Part shown: piece by piece, positions 616 through 10,374 of the stretch
Layout of the letters: every line of letters begins with the position of its first letter
How positions within the stretch are numbered: position 1 is the stretch's first letter
IMG/VR virus record: IMGVR_UViG_3300033153_006784
Span: 1 to 10,374 of that record
Length of the DNA stretch: 10,374 nt
Origin: a virus
Taxonomy: Duplodnaviria > Heunggongvirae > Uroviricota > Caudoviricetes
Strand: one strand, 5' to 3'
Made by a program: the position numbers and the translations under genes
The notes under the pieces: generated by a model
The model's input: the letters and a program-made list of their open reading frames with translations, nothing else
What the model was told of the DNA's origin: nothing
The model's database searches: none

Positions 616-744
616 ATGTTAGAATGGACACTATGGGTAAATATTAGCATTGCAGGTCTAGCATTTTGTACACTAATATTAACGGTAACTGTTTTAAAAT
701 TATGGGAAGATTATACTAAAAGAATAATGGAAGTGACAAATTGA
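616..744 (+). CDS. Small single-pass membrane protein, 42 aa (not in ORF track)
   Basis: Manual translation MLEWTLWVNISIAGLAFCTLILTVTVLKLWEDYTKRIMEVTN. It has a hydrophobic stretch of about 22 aa, sits at promoter distance from P2, and its TGA (742-744) overlaps the TTG start of the next gene (TTGA coupling). Confidence 0.75.
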   Translation: MLEWTLWVNISIAGLAFCTLILTVTVLKLWEDYTKRIMEVTN

Positions 745-1400
745 GTACATGGGAAAGTCAAAGAAGAGTATGGAAAGCATTCGACTTTGCATTAGAAAAA
801 CATATAAATCAAAAAGATGATAATGAAGAATCATATTTCCATGCACACTGTATGCACGTTGCTGATATCCTTAGAGGATTTATGAGAGAACGTGACGATA
901 ATCTACTTTGTGCCGGATACTTACACGATACAATCGAGGACACAGACACAACTTACGAGGAACTTGTCACACAATTCAATAAAGATATTGCCGACTTAGT
1001 AATGGAAGTCACTCATGAGGGAAAGAAAGACAACTATGGTTATTATTTTCCACGACTGAAAACAAAACGTGGAATACTCCTAAAATATGCTGATAGAATG
1101 TCTAATCTTTCAAGGATGGAAGCATGGAACCCTAGCAGACAAGAACAATATATCAGACGTTCTCGATTCTGGAAATACAAAGCTCCAAACCTTATTGATG
1201 CAACACTTAACCCTGAAGGTATAGCTGAAGTTATAACTGAATCAATTGTAAATCTAAAAGTTGATACGTCAGCACTTCCAACAGATTTACGAATGAGACT
1301 CAAAAGCGAAATAGTTAATTACTTGTACACCACTAAGCACATAGACAGGTACAGAACACAAGCGTACTTGGTTAAATTAATTGAGAGGTTGATAAAATGA
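741..1400 (+). CDS. HD-domain hydrolase of the Mesh1/SpoT small alarmone hydrolase type, with a C-terminal extension of about 70 aa
   Basis: Motifs AFDFALEKH-x2-Q...Y..HC..VA.IL, AGYLHDTIEDT, F...IADLV.EVT and LKYADRMSNL match the Rel/SpoT/Mesh1 hydrolase domain (HD, ED and distal D are present). Confidence 0.85.
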   Translation: MSTWESQRRVWKAFDFALEKHINQKDDNEESYFHAHCMHVADILRGFMRERDDNLLCAGYLHDTIEDTDTTYEELVTQFNKDIADLVMEVTHEGKKDNYGYYFPRLKTKRGILLKYADRMSNLSRMEAWNPSRQEQYIRRSRFWKYKAPNLIDATLNPEGIAEVITESIVNLKVDTSALPTDLRMRLKSEIVNYLYTTKHIDRYRTQAYLVKLIERLIK

Positions 1401-3722: not shown

Positions 3723-4088
3723 ATGATAATTCCCGTATTAATAATAATTGGAATATTCATACTCCTACTCTATTTGGGGAAGATAGTTTATGACGCAACT
3801 TTGACCATTGCAACCGATAAGAACCTGTACGCCAGAGGCGAAGATACAGATATTACAGGTCATTTAGAAACGACTGGCGGAGTCCCGCTAGTTGGTAAGG
3901 CGGTATCAATCGTCGTTAATCCGCCCGTTGGAGATGCTTATGTTTTACCTATAGCAATCACCGATGCAAGTGGAAATTTTCAAGTAAGTCCGGCATGGGT
4001 CGTACCGTCCGGTGCTGAACTAGGTGTCTATACTCTATCGGCTGCAAGCGAAGGTCAAACTGCTAATGCAACCTTTACACCCATTTAG
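3723..4088 (+). CDS. Membrane-anchored Ig-like (S-layer/MG2-like beta-sandwich) protein, about 121 aa; start re-called from 3666 to 3723
   Basis: N-terminal hydrophobic helix MIIPVLIIIGIFILLLYLG, then TDKNLYARGE..ITG...G.P....VSIVV.PP.G...TDASGNF...VPSGAELGVYTLSA...A.ATF, a typical Ig-like fold pattern. The ATG at 3723 fits promoter P4 spacing. Confidence 0.75.
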   Translation: MIIPVLIIIGIFILLLYLGKIVYDATLTIATDKNLYARGEDTDITGHLETTGGVPLVGKAVSIVVNPPVGDAYVLPIAITDASGNFQVSPAWVVPSGAELGVYTLSAASEGQTANATFTPI

Positions 4089-4429: not shown

Positions 4430-5034
4430 TGATACGCAGAAATAAACATCAAAGATATCTTGACGCTTTAATAGGTTGTAGAAGAATTGTCTCGATAACA
4501 CAATTTATGAATGTCGCTAATGTAGACTCTAAAAATTCAGACATTTTACTAAAAAGAGCGATAAGTAAAGGACATATTCAATTATATACTGCGAAATCCC
4601 AAAAAACTCCCGGTGGCGGAGCCAACTCATACAAATATAGACCTATGAGAAACTGGTACAAAACTACACAATTAGGAGAAGAATATATCATAAAAGCAAA
4701 AGAATTACATGATACTTTCAATGATCTTAATCTTGCACCAACATTAGGTTGGAACTTTATCAATAACAAAGTATTTGGACATCGATTACTTAGACCAGCC
4801 AGAAGAAAAAAATGGGTATTAGATGAAGATTCTCTCCCGAAAGAAATAATAGACGTACCATCTAATCAAATAGTAATAAAAAATGTAACAAGAAAAGATC
4901 AAGTTTTATCTAAAGCACAAGTTCCTATATTGGCTGACACAACAGGTTATCTGTGGGAAAAAGAACAACCTAAACATAACGAATACCAACCTTGGAAAAG
5001 AATGTACGAAAATAAGAACAACAAGGCCGAGTAG
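4429..5034 (+). CDS. Second, divergent winged-helix protein with a wing insertion and a C-terminal tail of about 100 aa
   Basis: RRNKHQRYLDAL...SITQFMNVANV...LLKRAISKGHI...WYKTTQLGEEYI parallels the upstream wHTH pattern. TAATG coupling. The last 10 nt overlap the tRNA. Confidence 0.65.
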   Translation: MIRRNKHQRYLDALIGCRRIVSITQFMNVANVDSKNSDILLKRAISKGHIQLYTAKSQKTPGGGANSYKYRPMRNWYKTTQLGEEYIIKAKELHDTFNDLNLAPTLGWNFINNKVFGHRLLRPARRKKWVLDEDSLPKEIIDVPSNQIVIKNVTRKDQVLSKAQVPILADTTGYLWEKEQPKHNEYQPWKRMYENKNNKAE

Positions 5035-5099
5035 CACACTGGAGATGCACCACGCTTCTAACGTGGACTAAGAGGGTTCGATTCCCTTCTCGGCTACCA
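5025..5099 (+). tRNA. tRNA-Arg(UCU): tRNA-Arg (anticodon UCU), intronless, CCA encoded
   Basis: Acceptor stem GGCCGAG/CTCGGCT, D-stem GCA/TGC with GG in the loop, anticodon stem CCACG/CGTGG with loop CTTCTAA (TCT at 5057-5059), T-arm GAGGG-TTCGATT-CCCTT, discriminator A5096 and CCA at 5097-5099. A20 after the D-loop GG is consistent with Arg identity. Confidence 0.92.
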
Positions 5100-5139: not shown

Positions 5140-5424
5140 GTGTTAGACATGGGTATAGAAGATAACATTAAGAACATTAAACCGCCCAGACTAACTTATT
5201 GTCCTTACATTAAAGGGCATAAGGATTTTGGCAATACGCAATGTTCTGAACAGATTACTAGAATGTTTTTTCAAAGACTATGTAATACAGGTGCTTATGA
5301 ACAATGTAAAATCTGTGCTAAGAAGCATAACGAGTTGAAAAATCCTATCGCATGGCTACAAAAAGAAGCAGTAGATAAAGAAAATAAAAGAAATCCAAAA
5401 GAAAAGGGTAGTAATGATTTATGA
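5140..5424 (+). CDS. Cys/His-rich, probably Zn-binding, hypothetical protein, 94 aa
   Basis: CPY...H...C...C...CKIC..H. First gene after P6, with an ATGA overlap into pncB. Confidence 0.75.
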   Translation: MLDMGIEDNIKNIKPPRLTYCPYIKGHKDFGNTQCSEQITRMFFQRLCNTGAYEQCKICAKKHNELKNPIAWLQKEAVDKENKRNPKEKGSNDL

Positions 5425-7136
5425 GAAAACCAAATATCGGGCTAATCAAAGAAGATGAACTTTTACTCTTTTCTGCGTATTACGCATATACGTCAGGTCG
5501 AGTGAACTTAGACAGTAGAATTGGAGAAATGGAAAAATTTCACGATGCAGTTTTTAAACTTGAAGATGAAGGTAAAAGTGCTATAGATGTACCTAGACCT
5601 GACAGATTAGATAGAGTAACACAAGTATACTTTTTCAGAAAAATTCCTAAACATCTTGGATCATACGTCATATTTGCAGGTTTAGAGCAAGTCATGGGTT
5701 GGATTCATACATTACAAGATAAAGCAGGATTGACAAAAGATACTTTAGAATTCTTACAATCTACTACAAATAATGACTTGGATGGTGCATTTTTAGATTA
5801 TCTTCTATTATTCTCAAATCAAAGTGAATCGGATCACAGACCACAGCCCGACTTTAACATCTGGGCAGTACCCGAAGGAACACCAGTTTTCCCAAATGAA
5901 CCCTGTCTCATGATAGAAGGCGATCCAATAGATATTCAAATAATCGAGGATATGCTTCTAGCCTGTTTAAACCATCAATCATTGATTGCTACCAAAACAT
6001 CCCGAATGAAATATCAGGTTGGTAAAAAGTCATTAGTAGACTTTGGTACTCGAAGGGCACACGGGTGGCTTGCGGCTTTACATGGAGCTAGAGCGAGCTA
6101 TATTGGCGGAACTGACGGAACATCACTTGTCCTTGCAGGATACAAATTTGGAATACCCTTCGTTGGTACGATGCCTCACGCTTACATCCAACTTAGACAA
6201 AAACCAGATATGACTTTCAATGACAGTGAAATTCAAGCCTTTGCCGAATACGCACAAACCTTCCCGCATAACAGTTTAGTATTAGTTGATACTTACAATT
6301 CAATTAATGGAATTATGAATTCAATTGAAATTGGAAAAAGATTAAAAAAACAAGGACACGAATTAAAAGGTATTAGACTCGATTCGGGAAATATGCTAGA
6401 ACTTAGTAAAACTGCAAGGACAATGTTAGATAATGCAGGTATGCACAGTTCAAAAATATATGTCAGTGATTCTTTAGACGAATTCTTAATACGGGATTTG
6501 TTATCCAGTGGAGCACCCGTTGATGGATTTGGTGTAGGTACACGACTTCAAACAGGAGCAAACTTCAATCCTTGGACAGAGAAGGGAGGAGCATCAGCAC
6601 TTGGAGGAGTGTTAAAACTCGTTGCAATTGGAGATAAACCTTCAATGAAATTTACAGATAACCCTGAAAAGAGAACTTTGCCGGGAAAACAGCAAATTTG
6701 GAGAATCTACGACAAGAGAAGTATGTACCAAGAGGATTACATTTCTACTTGGCAAGAAACTCTATCAGAGGCTAAACCTTTACTGATTCCAATCATGCTA
6801 CAAGGAAAATTAGTTTACGATTTCCCAACAACAAAAGAAATACGCACATATTCAATGAATGAATTAAAAAGAGTCAAGGCGGGATTTAAACGATTACCCA
6901 CAAATACGACAGTTGGTACGGGAACTTTGAAATATCCAGTACATCTAAGTCCAGAATTACAACAATTAAAAGCTATGTTAGAAATTAAATACGATATGGA
7001 ATTTGCAAAACCTAGAGAACAACCACTTACAGATGCAGAAATCAATGAACAGGTTGAAAAATATATGAGTATAAACCCAGATACCGAAGCACAATTAAAG
7101 TGGGAAATAAAACACAAGTGGGCGAATTACAAATGA
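5421..7136 (+). CDS. pncB: Nicotinate phosphoribosyltransferase (PncB/COG1488 family), divergent
   Basis: FFRKIP...FAGLEQV, AVPEGTPVFPNEP, LNHQSLIATKTSR, DFGTRRAHG, ARASYIGG, GIPFVGTMPHA (phospho-His motif), LVDTY, GIRLDSG, LDE, DGFGVGTRL, LGGV.KL and K.TLPGKQQIWR are all NAPRTase hallmarks. Confidence 0.92.
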   Translation: MRKPNIGLIKEDELLLFSAYYAYTSGRVNLDSRIGEMEKFHDAVFKLEDEGKSAIDVPRPDRLDRVTQVYFFRKIPKHLGSYVIFAGLEQVMGWIHTLQDKAGLTKDTLEFLQSTTNNDLDGAFLDYLLLFSNQSESDHRPQPDFNIWAVPEGTPVFPNEPCLMIEGDPIDIQIIEDMLLACLNHQSLIATKTSRMKYQVGKKSLVDFGTRRAHGWLAALHGARASYIGGTDGTSLVLAGYKFGIPFVGTMPHAYIQLRQKPDMTFNDSEIQAFAEYAQTFPHNSLVLVDTYNSINGIMNSIEIGKRLKKQGHELKGIRLDSGNMLELSKTARTMLDNAGMHSSKIYVSDSLDEFLIRDLLSSGAPVDGFGVGTRLQTGANFNPWTEKGGASALGGVLKLVAIGDKPSMKFTDNPEKRTLPGKQQIWRIYDKRSMYQEDYISTWQETLSEAKPLLIPIMLQGKLVYDFPTTKEIRTYSMNELKRVKAGFKRLPTNTTVGTGTLKYPVHLSPELQQLKAMLEIKYDMEFAKPREQPLTDAEINEQVEKYMSINPDTEAQLKWEIKHKWANYK

Positions 7137-8279: not shown

Positions 8280-8280
8280 C

Positions 8281-8316
8281 GAAATCTTTATATATAACCT
8301 ATATTACATTATGTAT
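8281..8316 (+). promoter_or_regulatory. Archaeal-type promoter P7 with no downstream ORF; drives ncRNA units 1 and 2
   Basis: GAAATCTTTATATATAAC with TTTATA at 8287 and TACATT at 8305. The position +30 is G8317, the first base of unit 1. Confidence 0.65.
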
Positions 8317-8371
8317 GGGCATAGAGAGTTCCTCTAAAAAAATATATGAAAAAAAAATATACTCTCCGCTC
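8317..8371 (+). ncRNA. Structured RNA unit 1 (55 nt)
   Basis: GGGC(8317-20)/GCTC(8368-71), loop ATA/C, GAGAGT(8324-29)/ACTCTC(8361-66), with an interior of TCCTCTA and an A-rich stretch. Confidence 0.7.
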
Positions 8372-8379
8372 CTTAAAAT

Positions 8380-8436
8380 TGACATAGGAAGTTCCTCTAC
8401 AAAACTTGTCTGTATAACAAAAATTACTTCCCGTCA
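8380..8436 (+). ncRNA. Structured RNA unit 2 (57 nt)
   Basis: TGAC(8380-83)/GTCA(8433-36), loop ATA/C, GGAAGT(8387-92)/ACTTCC(8426-31), with an interior of TCCTCTA and a small TTGT/ACAA hairpin. Confidence 0.7.
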
Positions 8437-8440
8437 CCAA

Positions 8441-8474
8441 AACCTTTTTATATAAGTTCTACATACAATGTTCT
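8441..8474 (+). promoter_or_regulatory. Archaeal-type promoter P8; drives ncRNA unit 3
   Basis: AACCTTTTTATATAAG with TTTATA at 8447 and TACAAT at 8464-8469. The position about +29 is the start of unit 3. Confidence 0.7.
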
Positions 8475-8556
8475 TGACATAAAGAGTTCCTCTAAAACCA
8501 AGCCTCTCAGCATGCCTTCGGGTTGTGCAGAGGCTCCTTAAAAATACTCTTCGTCA
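8475..8556 (+). ncRNA. Structured RNA unit 3 (82 nt) with an internal cUUCGg hairpin
   Basis: TGAC(8475-78)/GTCA(8553-56), loop ATA/C, AAGAGT(8482-87)/ACTCTT(8546-51). The interior has TCCTCTA plus a hairpin at 8501-8535 (AGCCTCT/AGAGGCT closing, C-TTCG-G tetraloop). It is followed by TTATTTT. Confidence 0.75.
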
Positions 8557-8574
8557 TTATTTTAAGAAATTACC

Positions 8575-8617
8575 GAAACGTTTTTATATAAGTTACCTAC
8601 AATATATTCTGATACAG
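8575..8617 (+). promoter_or_regulatory. Archaeal-type promoter P9
   Basis: GAAACG (BRE-like) plus TTTTTATATAAG, with TTTATA at 8583, TACAAT at 8598-8603 and ATG at 8618 (35 nt). Confidence 0.75.
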
Positions 8618-10374
8618 ATGAGATCAACAATTAGATTATTTAGAGCAGTTCCTATAATGACAAAAGGAACAGCAAAAAAAGAACAACCCATGAATGTGCT
8701 ATTAAGAACAATGGCAAAAGGGTATTTATTCGCACCAGAAGTAGTTGCGTCTTATAATGATTTAGACAGATTAGCAAACATGGTCGAAAATGAAGTCGGA
8801 TTAGATCCAATTGAATTAAATGCTTCATTTCACAAATCTTGGGCTAAAGTTACAAACGCATCTATGAGACAGTTAGTGTTAGAACAACTTGTTCATTATA
8901 TGACTACTTACGGATATGCAAGTATAGGAATTTACAGCGACGCTACCGTATTTATTCCTAGAGAAAAATTATTAATTCCAGCGATAGACCTTGACGGATT
9001 CACATTTACGATTATCAAGGGATATACGTCAGAAGAATTAAAAGAAAAGTTGCTAAAACTCCTAGAAAGTGGAATCGCACTAAAAGAAGAAACTGCAAGA
9101 GACGTAATGGAAGTTGCGACTTATGTAGGAATCGATGAAAAGGATATGGATAGAGTCAAAAACAAAGAAGTCCGAATTATGATGTTCGACTACTTAGGGC
9201 TAGTTCCAAGAAATCCAACCGAATTCCTGAGATATTGCGTTTACAAGGCAACTGAAAGTACACTGTTAATCAAGAATATGGGTACATTCACGAAAATCCA
9301 AGAAAGAGACAACTATGACGTTGCGGGTAAATTCGCAATGTATGACAAAGTTGTTGGATTCGAAAAATTAGCTGAAATCTTCTACAGATACAAACCGCTA
9401 TTCTTGGCATTTAGAACAAATGACCAAATGAGACGATACACTAACCAAATCAGAAAATTAGCAAAAACACATCACAAGCCTATGAGAAAGGACTATCTAA
9501 ACGAAGTTACAGCAATGATCAAAAGCGGGACAATAAAAAACACACCACTACAAGAAGCATTATCCAGAGCGAACATATTCCGAAAAATCAGATTAGCTTA
9601 CACATTGAACTTTAGATTGAAAAATCCAGTTTCAACAATATACCGAATCAGAAACGGTAAAAGCTATGTTACAGAAATGAAAGAATCTACACCAAGAGAG
9701 AAAATGTGGTATAGAGAAGTATTGAACACTGTGAAAAATGCGATAGCATCTGACCTAGCACACTTAAAGGGAAAGAGAATATACATCCCAGAACACATGA
9801 ATTACGCACTTCCAGCAACAGAAAAGCAATTCGTTGGAAATCTTCCATCAGGGACAAGTATTTCAGTACCGGACAACATGGTTTTCGGTATCCATTGGGA
9901 AAATCAAGGTAGAAACGTAATTGACATAGACTTATCACTACAAAATCAAAACGTTGGAAAAATCGGTTGGGATAGTTCATATAGAACACAAAAAAGAGAT
10001 ATTCTGTTCTCAGGTGACTTAGTAACTGCTCCGCTACCAAACGGTGCGACAGAACTGTTTTATGTTAAGGATAGTGCAGAAGGCTTTTACCTATTAAACG
10101 CAAACTATTACAATTATGATGCAACAATACCAGTTCCGATAAAAATCATCGTTGCGAGTGATGAAGGTGGAAAGCGATTCGGTGGAAATAGTAATAGAAC
10201 ATTATACATGGTAGATCCAAACAAAGTCTATGGAACGGTAAACTTTGAAATCAAGGATAAACAACACATGCTAGGACTGTTAGGTATTACTCCAGAAGGA
10301 GCAAAATTCTACTTCATTGACGCATCAGCAGGTGGCGGAATTACAAGCCGAGTCAACAAGAGAACTGAACAAAG
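8618..10374 (+). CDS. Large protein (more than 585 aa, runs off the window) with a helical N-terminal region and a TerD-like C-terminal region
   Basis: Manual translation gives an uninterrupted frame from ATG 8618 (MRSTIRLFRAVPIM...NASFHKSWAKV...EQLVHYMTTYG...RANIFRKIRLAY...YRIRNGKSY...ALPATEKQFVGNLPSG...) to the window end. FGIHW...IDIDLS...FSGDLVTAP..GATE (about 9884-10055) resembles the TerD GLGW...DLDAS...HSGD motif. It is missing from the ORF track because no stop occurs in the window. Confidence 0.9.
   Translation, partial: MRSTIRLFRAVPIMTKGTAKKEQPMNVLLRTMAKGYLFAPEVVASYNDLDRLANMVENEVGLDPIELNASFHKSWAKVTNASMRQLVLEQLVHYMTTYGYASIGIYSDATVFIPREKLLIPAIDLDGFTFTIIKGYTSEELKEKLLKLLESGIALKEETARDVMEVATYVGIDEKDMDRVKNKEVRIMMFDYLGLVPRNPTEFLRYCVYKATESTLLIKNMGTFTKIQERDNYDVAGKFAMYDKVVGFEKLAEIFYRYKPLFLAFRTNDQMRRYTNQIRKLAKTHHKPMRKDYLNEVTAMIKSGTIKNTPLQEALSRANIFRKIRLAYTLNFRLKNPVSTIYRIRNGKSYVTEMKESTPREKMWYREVLNTVKNAIASDLAHLKGKRIYIPEHMNYALPATEKQFVGNLPSGTSISVPDNMVFGIHWENQGRNVIDIDLSLQNQNVGKIGWDSSYRTQKRDILFSGDLVTAPLPNGATELFYVKDSAEGFYLLNANYYNYDATIPVPIKIIVASDEGGKRFGGNSNRTLYMVDPNKVYGTVNFEIKDKQHMLGLLGITPEGAKFYFIDASAGGGITSRVNKRTEQ

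What the first reader, a model, noticed from the sequence alone, without database searches (positions are those of the whole stretch)
8317..8556. Array of three covarying structured small RNAs next to a helical/TerD-like gene: candidate Y RNA/Ro60-like ribonucleoprotein system
Seen: three units of different length (55, 57 and 82 nt) fold identically. Each has an outer 4-bp stem (GGGC/GCTC, TGAC/GTCA, TGAC/GTCA), an invariant asymmetric loop (5'-AUA, 3'-C), an inner 6-bp stem (GAGAGT/ACTCTC, GGAAGT/ACTTCC, AAGAGT/ACTCTT), a U-U closing mismatch and an invariant single-stranded UCCUCUA followed by A-rich sequence. The first three inner-stem pairs and the outer stem change on both strands while keeping pairing, which indicates selection on RNA structure. 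Units 1 and 3 start 29-30 nt after their own TATA boxes, no credible ORF follows these promoters, and the downstream gene has a separate promoter, so these look like independent transcripts rather than a 5' UTR. Established: bacterial Y RNAs pair their 5' and 3' ends into an interrupted helix bound by Ro60/Rsr (TROVE domain), carry a pyrimidine-rich internal loop and variable appended modules, and are encoded next to the rsr gene. Inference: these RNAs are ligands of the adjacent 8618 protein (constant protein-binding stem plus a variable payload loop). I do not recognise them as a named RNA family.
Basis: partly seen in the sequence, partly recalled or inferred. Interest (0 to 1): 0.92.

Follow-up and report, generated by a model that had tools for sequence, protein, structure and literature searches.

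The report
Y-RNA-like small RNAs beside TerD-fusion gene
The three folded units are real small RNA genes of a widespread family missing from the RNA databases; in viruses, bacteria and archaea the family sits beside one uncharacterised 630-residue protein gene, an arrangement like the Ro60/Y RNA particle but with an apparently unrelated protein.

Summary
Units at 8317-8371, 8380-8436 and 8475-8556 fold as described, and a fourth copy lies 14 kb away in the same 84-kb, probably archaeal, tailed-virus record.

A covariance model built from relatives finds 219 units in 80 viral loci and about 185 in 80 bacterial and archaeal loci. All are on the gene strand, and nearly all lie just upstream of homologues of the 8618 protein. 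Eleven of 12 base pairs covary. In 81 genomes of one bacterial genus (Chryseobacterium by record title), RNA and protein co-occur in 49, stand alone in 1 each and are both missing in 30.

The protein is a helical N-terminal part plus a TerD-fold domain. It shows no TROVE or vWA signal. Rfam has no matching family, and the Ro-binding motif is absent. So this is not a Ro60/Y RNA member.

It does look like one in how it works. It has a constant handle and a variable payload, which elsewhere is a hairpin, a permuted tRNA mimic or a whole tRNA. In Flavobacteriia an RtcB RNA ligase gene is adjacent.

Most likely it is an undescribed RNA-protein particle acting on tRNA or RNA damage. Binding and transcripts are not shown. 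This scan has met the family before on at least eight other genomes.

The parts
8287..8294 (+). TATA-like box (TTTATATA) placed to start transcription at unit 1
   Evidence: Sequence. It ends 22 nt before 8317. Genome-wide, such boxes peak 23-30 nt before start codons. That it acts as a promoter is inferred, not shown.
8317..8371 (+). Unit 1: small structured RNA, 55 nt. Outer stem 8317-8320/8368-8371, AUA bulge 8321-8323, inner stem 8324-8329/8361-8366, bulged C 8367, A-rich loop.
   Evidence: Fold. Model hit 8315-8373, 57.2 bits, E 3e-14.
8380..8436 (+). Unit 2: small structured RNA, 57 nt, 8 nt after unit 1 and with no promoter of its own
   Evidence: Fold. Model hit 8378-8438, 52.3 bits.
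8447..8454 (+). TATA-like box for unit 3. The T-run 8445-8449 just before it could also end the unit 1-2 transcript.
   Evidence: Repeat family D2 gives the same 23-nt promoter-like sequence at 8436-8458 and 8572-8594. Spacing. Inferred.
8475..8556 (+). Unit 3: small structured RNA, 82 nt, with a payload hairpin at 8501-8535 (UUCG loop)
   Evidence: Fold at -23.9 kcal/mol, z -3.6. Model hit 8473-8558, 36.3 bits.
8583..8590 (+). TATA-like box of the protein gene, giving a leaderless or near-leaderless mRNA
   Evidence: It ends 27 nt before ATG 8618. Inferred.
8618..10374 (+). Gene for the 640-aa partner protein (it runs on to 10537 of the record): helical N-terminal part (about 1-385) plus a TerD-fold domain (about 416-590)
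   Evidence: Translation. AlphaFold model with pLDDT 85.9. TerD matches 2qz7_B (Z 9.5, rmsd 3.1, 145 aligned) and 2kxt (Z 9.4). More than 2,400 homologues, all without a name.

Best explanation
The three units, plus a fourth 14 kb away, are genes for small non-coding RNAs of a widespread family that is not in Rfam. Each RNA pairs its 5' and 3' ends into a 4-6 bp outer stem. Next come an asymmetric bulge (AUA opposite C), a 6-bp inner stem ending in G-C and U-A, a U-U opposition and an invariant single-stranded UCCU followed by A/U-rich sequence. I read this constant part as the handle bound by the adjacent 640-aa helical + TerD-domain protein. The variable loop is a payload: nothing or a hairpin in this window, and in relatives a T-arm, a circularly permuted tRNA mimic or a complete tRNA. 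The RNA-protein particle most likely acts on tRNA or RNA damage, surveillance or repair, and in viruses perhaps protects translation against host tRNA-cutting defences. In logic it resembles Ro60/Y RNA, but the protein appears unrelated. Shown: the RNA structure with covariation, strand specificity, obligate genetic linkage to the protein across viruses, bacteria and archaea, the TerD fold, and the RtcB neighbourhood in Flavobacteriia. Inferred: transcription starts at the units, physical binding, and the biological role.
For: Structure: 95% of cells are paired, 11 of 12 pairs change on both sides, and the covariation score is 0.675 against 0.241 in shuffles and at most 0.18 with slid partners. 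A sequence-only anchor test finds the full structure at 160 of 203 upstream GTTCCT sites, against 30 of 4060 in controls and 8 of 205 elsewhere. G.U outnumbers A.C by 110 to 12, which points to RNA on the gene strand. Linkage: 219 of 219 hits in 80 viral loci are on the gene strand, mostly within 500 nt upstream. The same holds for all 190 listed hits (about 185 below E 0.001) in 80 bacterial and archaeal loci. In three complete bacterial genomes every hit is beside the gene. In 81 genomes of one genus, 49 have both, 1 has only the RNA (at a contig edge), 1 has only a protein remnant and 30 have neither. The cultured phages S-CRM01, S-CBWM1 and Phass-1 also carry both. Trans-acting rather than leader: a separate promoter-like box lies between unit 3 and the gene. 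Some copies are downstream of the gene or kilobases away. Payload modules are shown, and ARAGORN calls the element in L187 a tRNA. Role: an RtcB gene is adjacent in 41 of 80 cellular loci in two different gene orders. This parallels rsr-yrlBA-rtcBA (PMC7790460). Of the 80 viral loci, 23 have a tRNA gene in the ~6.9-kb locus, and 187 of the 188 tRNA genes in viral and cellular loci together lie on the gene strand. In S-CRM01 and S-CBWM1 the gene lies inside the tRNA island.
Against: There is no direct evidence that the RNAs are made as small transcripts. There is no direct evidence that the protein binds RNA, and TerD domains are known as Ca-binding stress proteins, not RNA binders. The helical part has no informative structural match. 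This virus has no RtcB in the 84 kb held, and none of its four units has a tRNA-like payload. Unit 4 has no T-run before the next gene, so it could be a leader there. Units in arrays are only about 12-15 nt apart and show no clear U-tract enrichment, so processing from a precursor has to be assumed. Tight synteny alone would also fit a cis-regulatory element.
Confidence: 0.6

Rival explanations
1. The units are cis-regulatory operators. The protein, or another factor, binds repeated elements in its own leader to control its synthesis, as in autoregulated ribosomal-protein or phage RegA/gp32-type leaders.
For: Nearly all units lie directly upstream of the gene on the same strand, 20-30 nt from the start codon in bacteria. 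Unit 4 runs into the next gene with no T-run. Contigs from RNA libraries bridge rtcB, the array and the gene in Chryseobacterium relatives (weak, because DNA carry-over is not excluded).
Against: In this window a promoter-like box lies between the array and a leaderless start. Some units are downstream of the gene, 1-10 kb away, or in front of unrelated genes. Variable payloads up to a complete tRNA or a tRNA mimic make no sense for an operator.
Confidence: 0.15
2. It is a true but very divergent Ro60/Y RNA system: the helical part is a TROVE ring that sequence methods cannot recognise.
For: The architecture is shared: an RNA with paired ends and a bulged helix, modular loops, tRNA mimics with the acceptor closed as in YrlA, and RtcB next door (PMC4201824, PMC7790460). 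Earlier notes of this scan called the fold Ro60-like (unchecked AI notes).
Against: Pfam TROVE gives no hit. The six-frame PF05731 search gives nothing at E<=10 while the controls ring. hhalign against real Rsr proteins gives probability 0.2%. A profile search of PDB sequences gives nothing. The C-terminal domain is TerD, not vWA. The Ro-binding motif is absent. No Y RNA or YrlA model scores. Genome G003 has a real Rsr as well, and the RNAs are not beside it.
Confidence: 0.06
3. The units work without the protein. They could be processing or insulator signals in tRNA-island transcripts, or free tRNA-like decoys or scaffolds, and the gene linkage reflects co-mobility.
For: They often lie in tRNA islands, and once next to a GOLLD RNA. 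A whole tRNA is embedded in one unit. Units are spaced like tRNA clusters.
Against: Co-occurrence with the protein is near perfect even in chromosomes without tRNA islands: 49 of 51 genomes that hold either part, and only 8 of 80 cellular loci have a tRNA nearby. The invariant UCCU and bulge are conserved across domains of life, which suggests one conserved reader.
Confidence: 0.12
4. The repeats are coding (a small repeat peptide, ORF 8315-8455) or act as DNA, for example as iterons or protein-binding sites.
For: Units 1 and 2 are in frame in a 46-codon ORF with GIESSSKK / DIGSSSTK repeats.
Against: Unit 3 has a stop in that frame. Across 331 units, lengths modulo 3 are flat (109/122/100) and no frame is preserved. 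Compensatory changes keep pairing, and G.U far outnumbers A.C. All hits are on one strand.
Confidence: 0.02

Closest known systems
Ro60 (Rsr) with Y RNAs, especially bacterial and phage YrlA/YrlB and the Salmonella rsr-yrlBA-rtcBA operon (PMC4201824, PMC7790460)
   Same: Small RNAs are encoded in one or several copies beside the gene of a large, partly helical protein. The 5' and 3' ends pair into a bulged helix. There is a large variable loop or module. Some family members carry a tRNA mimic with T and D arms and a closed acceptor stem. An RtcB ligase gene is adjacent in many bacteria. Versions occur in phages.
   Different: The protein has no detectable TROVE domain and carries a TerD-fold domain where Ro60 has vWA. 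The RNA handle (GGC-AUA-RRNRGU-UCCUAUU...UAC-YNYY-C-GCC) differs from the Ro-binding motif. Rfam Y RNA and YrlA models do not score. Arrays reach seven units. A real Rsr coexists in the same bacterium. Most units, including all four in this virus, have no tRNA-like domain.
TerD-family proteins of tellurite-resistance / Ter stress loci (PDB 2kxt, 3ibz, 2qz7)
   Same: Residues of about 416-590 adopt the TerD beta-sandwich (Z 9.4-9.5). The DLDLS and SGD motifs are kept.
   Different: The acidic Ca-binding stretch (GDGDDE in TerD, from my knowledge of the family) is replaced by TAPLPNGATE-type sequence. The domain is fused to a 385-residue helical part. No other ter genes are nearby. The Pfam TerD model does not score at E<=0.01.
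Phage tRNA islands with large ornate RNAs (GOLLD, ROOL)
   Same: Found in phages and prophage-like regions, often beside tRNA genes. One relative (L242) has a GOLLD-like RNA, a tRNA, the unit array and then the gene. The function is also unknown.
   Different: The units are 45-130 nt simple two-stem RNAs, not 400-800 nt multi-junction RNAs. They have an obligate protein-gene partner, whereas no protein partner is known for GOLLD or ROOL (bioRxiv 10.1101/2024.12.08.627333).

Membership tests
Ro60/Y RNA system | The partner protein has a TROVE domain | tested here: not met
   Pfam scan of P0001: no family at E<=0.01. PF05731 six-frame search of the whole record: nothing at E<=10, while the controls Deinococcus radiodurans and Bacteroides thetaiotaomicron ring. 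hhalign of the family profile against three real Rsr proteins: probability 0.2% (the Rsr alignment is shallow).
Ro60/Y RNA system | The partner protein folds as a Ro60-type HEAT-repeat ring | tested here: inconclusive
   Foldseek and VIA-align searches with the full model and with the 1-385 model give only weak generic helical matches (Z<=7.1). No Ro60 chain is in the listed rows. A missing match does not exclude the fold.
Ro60/Y RNA system | C-terminal vWA domain | tested here: not met
   The C-terminal domain matches TerD structures: 2qz7_B Z 9.5, 2kxt Z 9.4, and Foldseek 3ibz E 1e-4.
Y RNA / YrlA (Rfam) | Match to the Rfam covariance models | tested here: not met
   cmscan at E<=10 on the window, on 8280-8620 alone and on related arrays that include tRNA-mimic units: no Y RNA or YrlA row.
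Y RNA / YrlA | Ro-binding motif near the 5' end (GNCGAAN0-1G in bacteria, GGUCCGA in vertebrates; PMC4201824) | tested here: not met
   In the alignment of 93 units the corresponding positions read G-C-A-(U/A/C)-A, with A7 invariant and A9 above 90%.
Y RNA / YrlA | The 5' and 3' ends pair into a long bulged stem around a large variable loop | tested here: met
   Folds. Pair counts with covariation.
YrlA | tRNA-like domain (T and D arms, closed acceptor stem) | tested here: not met
   None of the four units of this virus has one. A minority of relatives do, for example L124:2365-2477 and L134:2367-2482.
TerD family | TerD beta-sandwich fold | tested here: met
   The Pfam TerD model itself did not score.
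cis-regulatory leader / riboswitch | The element is part of the mRNA 5' UTR of the gene it controls | tested here: inconclusive
   A promoter-like box at 8583-8590 lies between the array and ATG 8618, which argues against a leader here. No transcript ends could be mapped.
CRISPR-like mini-array or type III toxin-antitoxin RNA repeats | Near-identical direct repeats of fixed length | tested here: not met
   The units are 55, 57 and 82 nt. The 27-nt cores are 78-81% identical. The two halves of each unit covary with each other rather than being identical between units.

The most novel reading that the evidence does not exclude
A second, domain-spanning Ro/Y-like ribonucleoprotein system. A helical + TerD protein reads a conserved RNA handle and displays interchangeable payloads (hairpins, tRNA mimics, whole tRNAs). 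It works with RtcB-type repair in bacteria. Large phages and archaeal viruses would use it to keep tRNAs or translation working under host attack. It would have evolved independently of TROVE proteins.
Probability: 0.45. Interest if true: 0.9.

Novelty: new variant of a known kind. Interest (0 to 1): 0.8.

Why it matters
If the RNAs and the protein form a particle, this is a large RNA-protein system that has gone unseen. It has thousands of protein homologues in viruses, bacteria and archaea, no Pfam family for the helical part and no Rfam family for the RNA. It parallels Ro60/Y RNA, whose bacterial function is still poorly understood.

The module gives a second, independent handle on what such particles do with tRNA-like RNAs and RtcB. 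It occurs in cultivable Chryseobacterium and in cultured cyanophages, so the question can be tested directly.

It would also correct annotation. At least one phage CDS is called on top of the units, and the units would explain unannotated gaps in phage tRNA islands.

Tried and rejected
- Megablast of the window against cultured phages: no match.
- Single-protein locus search in viral contigs: no relative found. The alignment query was needed.
- Pattern scan TGACATANNNAGTTCCT in viral contigs: nearly all matches were chance. Only L122 was real.
- Rfam at permissive thresholds on the window, the array alone and four related loci: no family on the units.
- Profile of the helical part against PDB sequences: nothing at E<=10.
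- ESM Atlas by features: only an unnamed cluster at 0.87.
- Ro60 was not among the listed fold matches. This is an absence, not an exclusion.
- Sequencing runs for the window: none was listed.
- RNA-library contigs (Logan) from three studies bridge rtcB, the array and the gene of a Chryseobacterium relative. Contigs cannot show ends or strand, some records reach 88-157 kb, and I laid no silent stretch. DNA carry-over is therefore not excluded, and I do not count this as expression evidence.
- Raw reads of four 2026 runs: zero reads laid, so no test.
- U-tract enrichment after units as a sign of intrinsic termination: not clear. Viral units 35/160 against 20/160 upstream; cellular units are confounded by the 12-nt spacing.
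- RtcB in this virus: not found in the 84 kb held, and the record is about 57% complete.
- Literature: no paper in the held library links TerD, these RNAs, RtcB or GOLLD. Burroughs & Aravind 2016 on RNA repair systems is not held, so an earlier mention of this protein family there cannot be excluded.
- Rejected ideas: K-turn (no tandem G.A pairs after the bulge); bulge-helix-bulge splice motif (the bulges are not staggered by 4 bp on opposite strands, and the flanks do not pair); anti-Shine-Dalgarno mimic (UCCU is equally conserved in Bacteroidota which, from my own knowledge, largely lack Shine-Dalgarno use).

Full report
**What is in the window**

The window is the first 10,374 bases of an 84-kb IMG/VR virus record, estimated about 57% complete, with GC near 33%. 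The record encodes a T4-type large terminase, a family B DNA polymerase, PCNA, a Rad51/RadA-like protein and 16 tRNAs. TATA-like 8-mers sit 23-30 nt in front of many start codons. The closest homologues of several genes lie in Promethearchaeota and DPANN bins. I read it as a tailed virus of an archaeon, with moderate confidence.

**Check of the observation**

Each folds as described:
- a 4-bp outer stem;
- an AUA bulge opposite a single C;
- a 6-bp inner stem;
- a U-U opposition;
- UCCUCUA followed by an A-rich loop.

Unit 3 also carries a UUCG-capped hairpin at 8501-8535. A fourth unit lies at 22356-22410 of the same record, between an eRF1-like small ORF and a methyltransferase gene. Units 1 and 2 lie in frame inside a short ORF (8315-8455), but this follows from the nucleotide repeat. 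Over 331 distinct family members, unit length is flat modulo 3 and no reading frame is kept.

**Relatives and structure**

The gene at 8618 encodes a 640-aa protein (P0001). It has more than 2,400 homologues of about 630 aa at roughly 50% identity, none with a Pfam domain or a name. An alignment-based search fetched 80 viral loci and 80 bacterial or archaeal loci that hold a homologue.

A structural pattern, and then a covariance model (R1, built from 93 units), gave these counts:
- 219 units in the viral loci;
- 190 listed hits in the cellular loci, about 185 of them below E 0.001.

Every hit is on the strand of the gene. Nearly all lie within 500 nt upstream, in arrays of one to seven about 12-15 nt apart, and a few lie just downstream.

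On the 93-unit alignment, 95% of cells pair and 11 of 12 pairs show changes on both sides. The covariation score is 0.675, against 0.241 for shuffles and at most 0.18 for slid partners. My seed units had been chosen for pairing, so I also ran a sequence-only anchor test:
- 160 of 203 GTTCCT sites upstream of the genes have the complete structure;
- 30 of 4060 do when the 5' half is shuffled;
- 8 of 205 GTTCCT sites inside the genes or on the other strand do.

The two outermost pairs, which were not selected for, pair in 61% and 81% of units with several pair types. Among non-Watson-Crick oppositions, G.U outnumbers A.C by 110 to 12, as expected for an RNA read from the gene strand.

**Linkage to the protein**

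- In the virus's own record the model finds exactly the four units.
- In three complete bacterial genomes of 5.3-7.5 Mb, all hits (3, 1 and 4) lie beside the homologous gene.
- In 81 genomes of one bacterial genus (Chryseobacterium by record title), the RNA is found in 50 and the protein in 50. Both are found in 49. One genome has the RNA only, at the edge of a contig. One has only a 108-residue remnant of the protein. Thirty have neither.
- Three cultured phages carry the pair. In Synechococcus phages S-CRM01 (g174) and S-CBWM1 (gp22) the gene sits inside the tRNA island. In gut phage Phass-1 an array of six units lies 1.3 kb downstream, and further units lie about 10 kb away.

The RNA and the protein therefore form one genetic module across viruses, bacteria and archaea.

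**What the protein is**

The AlphaFold model is confident (pLDDT 85.9, pTM 0.85). Residues of about 416-590 are a TerD-type beta-sandwich:
- 2qz7_B: Z 9.5, rmsd 3.1 over 145 residues;
- 2kxt: Z 9.4;
- Foldseek 3ibz: E 1e-4.

The DLDLS and SGD motifs are kept. The acidic calcium-binding stretch of TerD is replaced (SGDLVTAPLPNGATE).

Residues 1-385 are helical with a conserved basic patch (FRKIRLAY...YRIRNGK). They give only weak, generic helical matches.

For TROVE I found:
- no Pfam hit;
- no hit at E<=10 in a six-frame search of the record, while the positive controls ring;
- nothing in PDB sequences;
- an hhalign probability of 0.2% against real Rsr proteins from the same bacterial order.

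One of those bacteria (G003) has both a real Rsr and this module, and the R1 RNAs lie only at this module. Earlier notes of this scan called the protein Ro60-like. My tests do not reproduce that, although a distant fold relationship cannot be excluded.

**What the RNA is not**

Rfam 15 has no family that scores on the units, even at E<=10 on short stretches. The Ro-binding motif of Y RNAs (GNCGAAN0-1G; PMC4201824) is absent, because the units read GCA(U/A/C)A. The units are not identical repeats, so they are neither a CRISPR-like nor a ToxI-like array.

**How it probably works**

The constant part is conserved from archaeal viruses to Flavobacteriia. It consists of the stems, the bulge, the U-U opposition and UCCU followed by A/U-rich sequence. 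The loop between is free to vary:
- usually 25-40 nt of A/U-rich sequence;
- a GC hairpin in about a third of units;
- a T-arm in some;
- a circularly permuted tRNA mimic with a closed acceptor stem in others (L124:2365-2477, L134:2367-2482);
- once a complete tRNA (L187:2129-2246, also called by ARAGORN).

That is the layout of a handle plus a payload, as in Y RNAs.

In this window promoter-like boxes end 20-22 nt before units 1, 3 and 4. Another box lies between unit 3 and a leaderless ATG. Here, then, the units are probably separate transcripts. Unit 1 and unit 2 would share one transcript.

In 41 of the 80 cellular loci, all from Flavobacteriia, an RtcB RNA ligase gene is the immediate neighbour. 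It is upstream in Chryseobacterium and Flavobacterium and downstream in Winogradskyella and Algibacter. This mirrors the rsr-yrlBA-rtcBA operon, which responds to damaged tRNAs (PMC7790460). An RlaP nucleotidyltransferase and an SPFH protein appear near other homologues.

In viruses the module often sits in tRNA islands. Of the 80 viral loci, 23 have tRNAs in the ~6.9-kb locus. Across viral and cellular loci together, 187 of 188 tRNA genes are on the gene strand.

My best reading, at about 0.6, is a ribonucleoprotein in which the protein binds the handle. The particle would act in tRNA or RNA damage surveillance or repair and, in viruses, perhaps in protection of translation. Binding, the transcripts and the role are all inferred.

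**Rivals**

- A cis-regulatory leader fits the position of most units. It does not fit the internal promoter, the distant and downstream copies or the tRNA payloads (0.15).
- A protein-independent role in tRNA-island transcripts is hard to square with the near-perfect co-occurrence in chromosomes that lack tRNA islands (0.12).
- True Ro60 membership fails the sequence tests (0.06).
- Coding or DNA-level readings fail on frame, strand and G.U evidence (0.02).

**Novelty**

I found no Rfam family, no Pfam family for the helical part and no paper in the held library that describes the pair. One relevant review of RNA repair systems is not held.

The scan itself has reported the same family on at least eight other genomes. 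This window adds a probably archaeal virus in which units appear to have their own TATA-type promoters.
- the genus-level co-occurrence test;
- the RtcB neighbourhood;
- the negative TROVE tests, including coexistence with a real Rsr.

I class it as a new variant of a known kind: Ro/Y-like in logic, but with a new RNA family and an apparently unrelated protein.

Noticed in passing
window 5421-7136; G000 10624-11238 and 11235-12083 (just beyond the window): A viral NAD salvage set flanks the RNA-protein module: nicotinate phosphoribosyltransferase, an isochorismatase-family (nicotinamidase-like) protein and NAD synthase. Gut phage Phass-1 has nicotinamide phosphoribosyltransferase and PRPP synthetase beside its homologue. 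This may be NAD replenishment against NAD-depleting host defences.
   Followed up: partly
L242:1129-1608 (Winogradskyella chromosome): A GOLLD-like RNA (136.9 bits, E 1.7e-36, just under the gathering score of 150) is followed by a tRNA, the unit array, the TerD-fusion gene and RtcB. No protein partner is known for GOLLD.
   Followed up: no
L187:2129-2246: One family member carries a complete tRNA-like element, with CCA, inside its variable loop. ARAGORN calls it a tRNA of undetermined anticodon at 2154-2229.
   Followed up: partly
G000 22012-23097: The fourth unit (22356-22410) lies between a 113-aa ORF with an eRF1 domain-2 / bacterial-archaeal release-factor-like match and a SAM methyltransferase. 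It has its own TATA-like box and no T-run before the methyltransferase start.
   Followed up: partly
L296:3791-3937 (Synechococcus phage S-CRM01, CDS g173c): A 48-codon hypothetical CDS is annotated on the minus strand over two of the RNA units (model hits at 3747-3807 and 3815-3878). It is probably a spurious gene call.
   Followed up: no
G003 (the Chryseobacterium genome behind L265), 2.783 Mb and 3.29 Mb: The same bacterium has a real Rsr (TROVE, 506-aa ORF) and the TerD-fusion module with RtcB, at separate places. The two systems coexist rather than replace each other.
   Followed up: partly
window 741-1400 and 1646-2698: An HD-domain protein (HD_4) is followed by a 350-aa protein with a weak Pol-beta-type nucleotidyltransferase palm match. 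Together with tRNA-Arg(TCT) at 5025-5099, this hints at further tRNA or nucleotide-metabolism functions.
   Followed up: no
window 8315-8455: A 46-codon ORF runs through units 1 and 2 in frame (GIESSSKK / DIGSSSTK). It is a by-product of the repeated RNA sequence and could be miscalled as a gene.
   Followed up: yes
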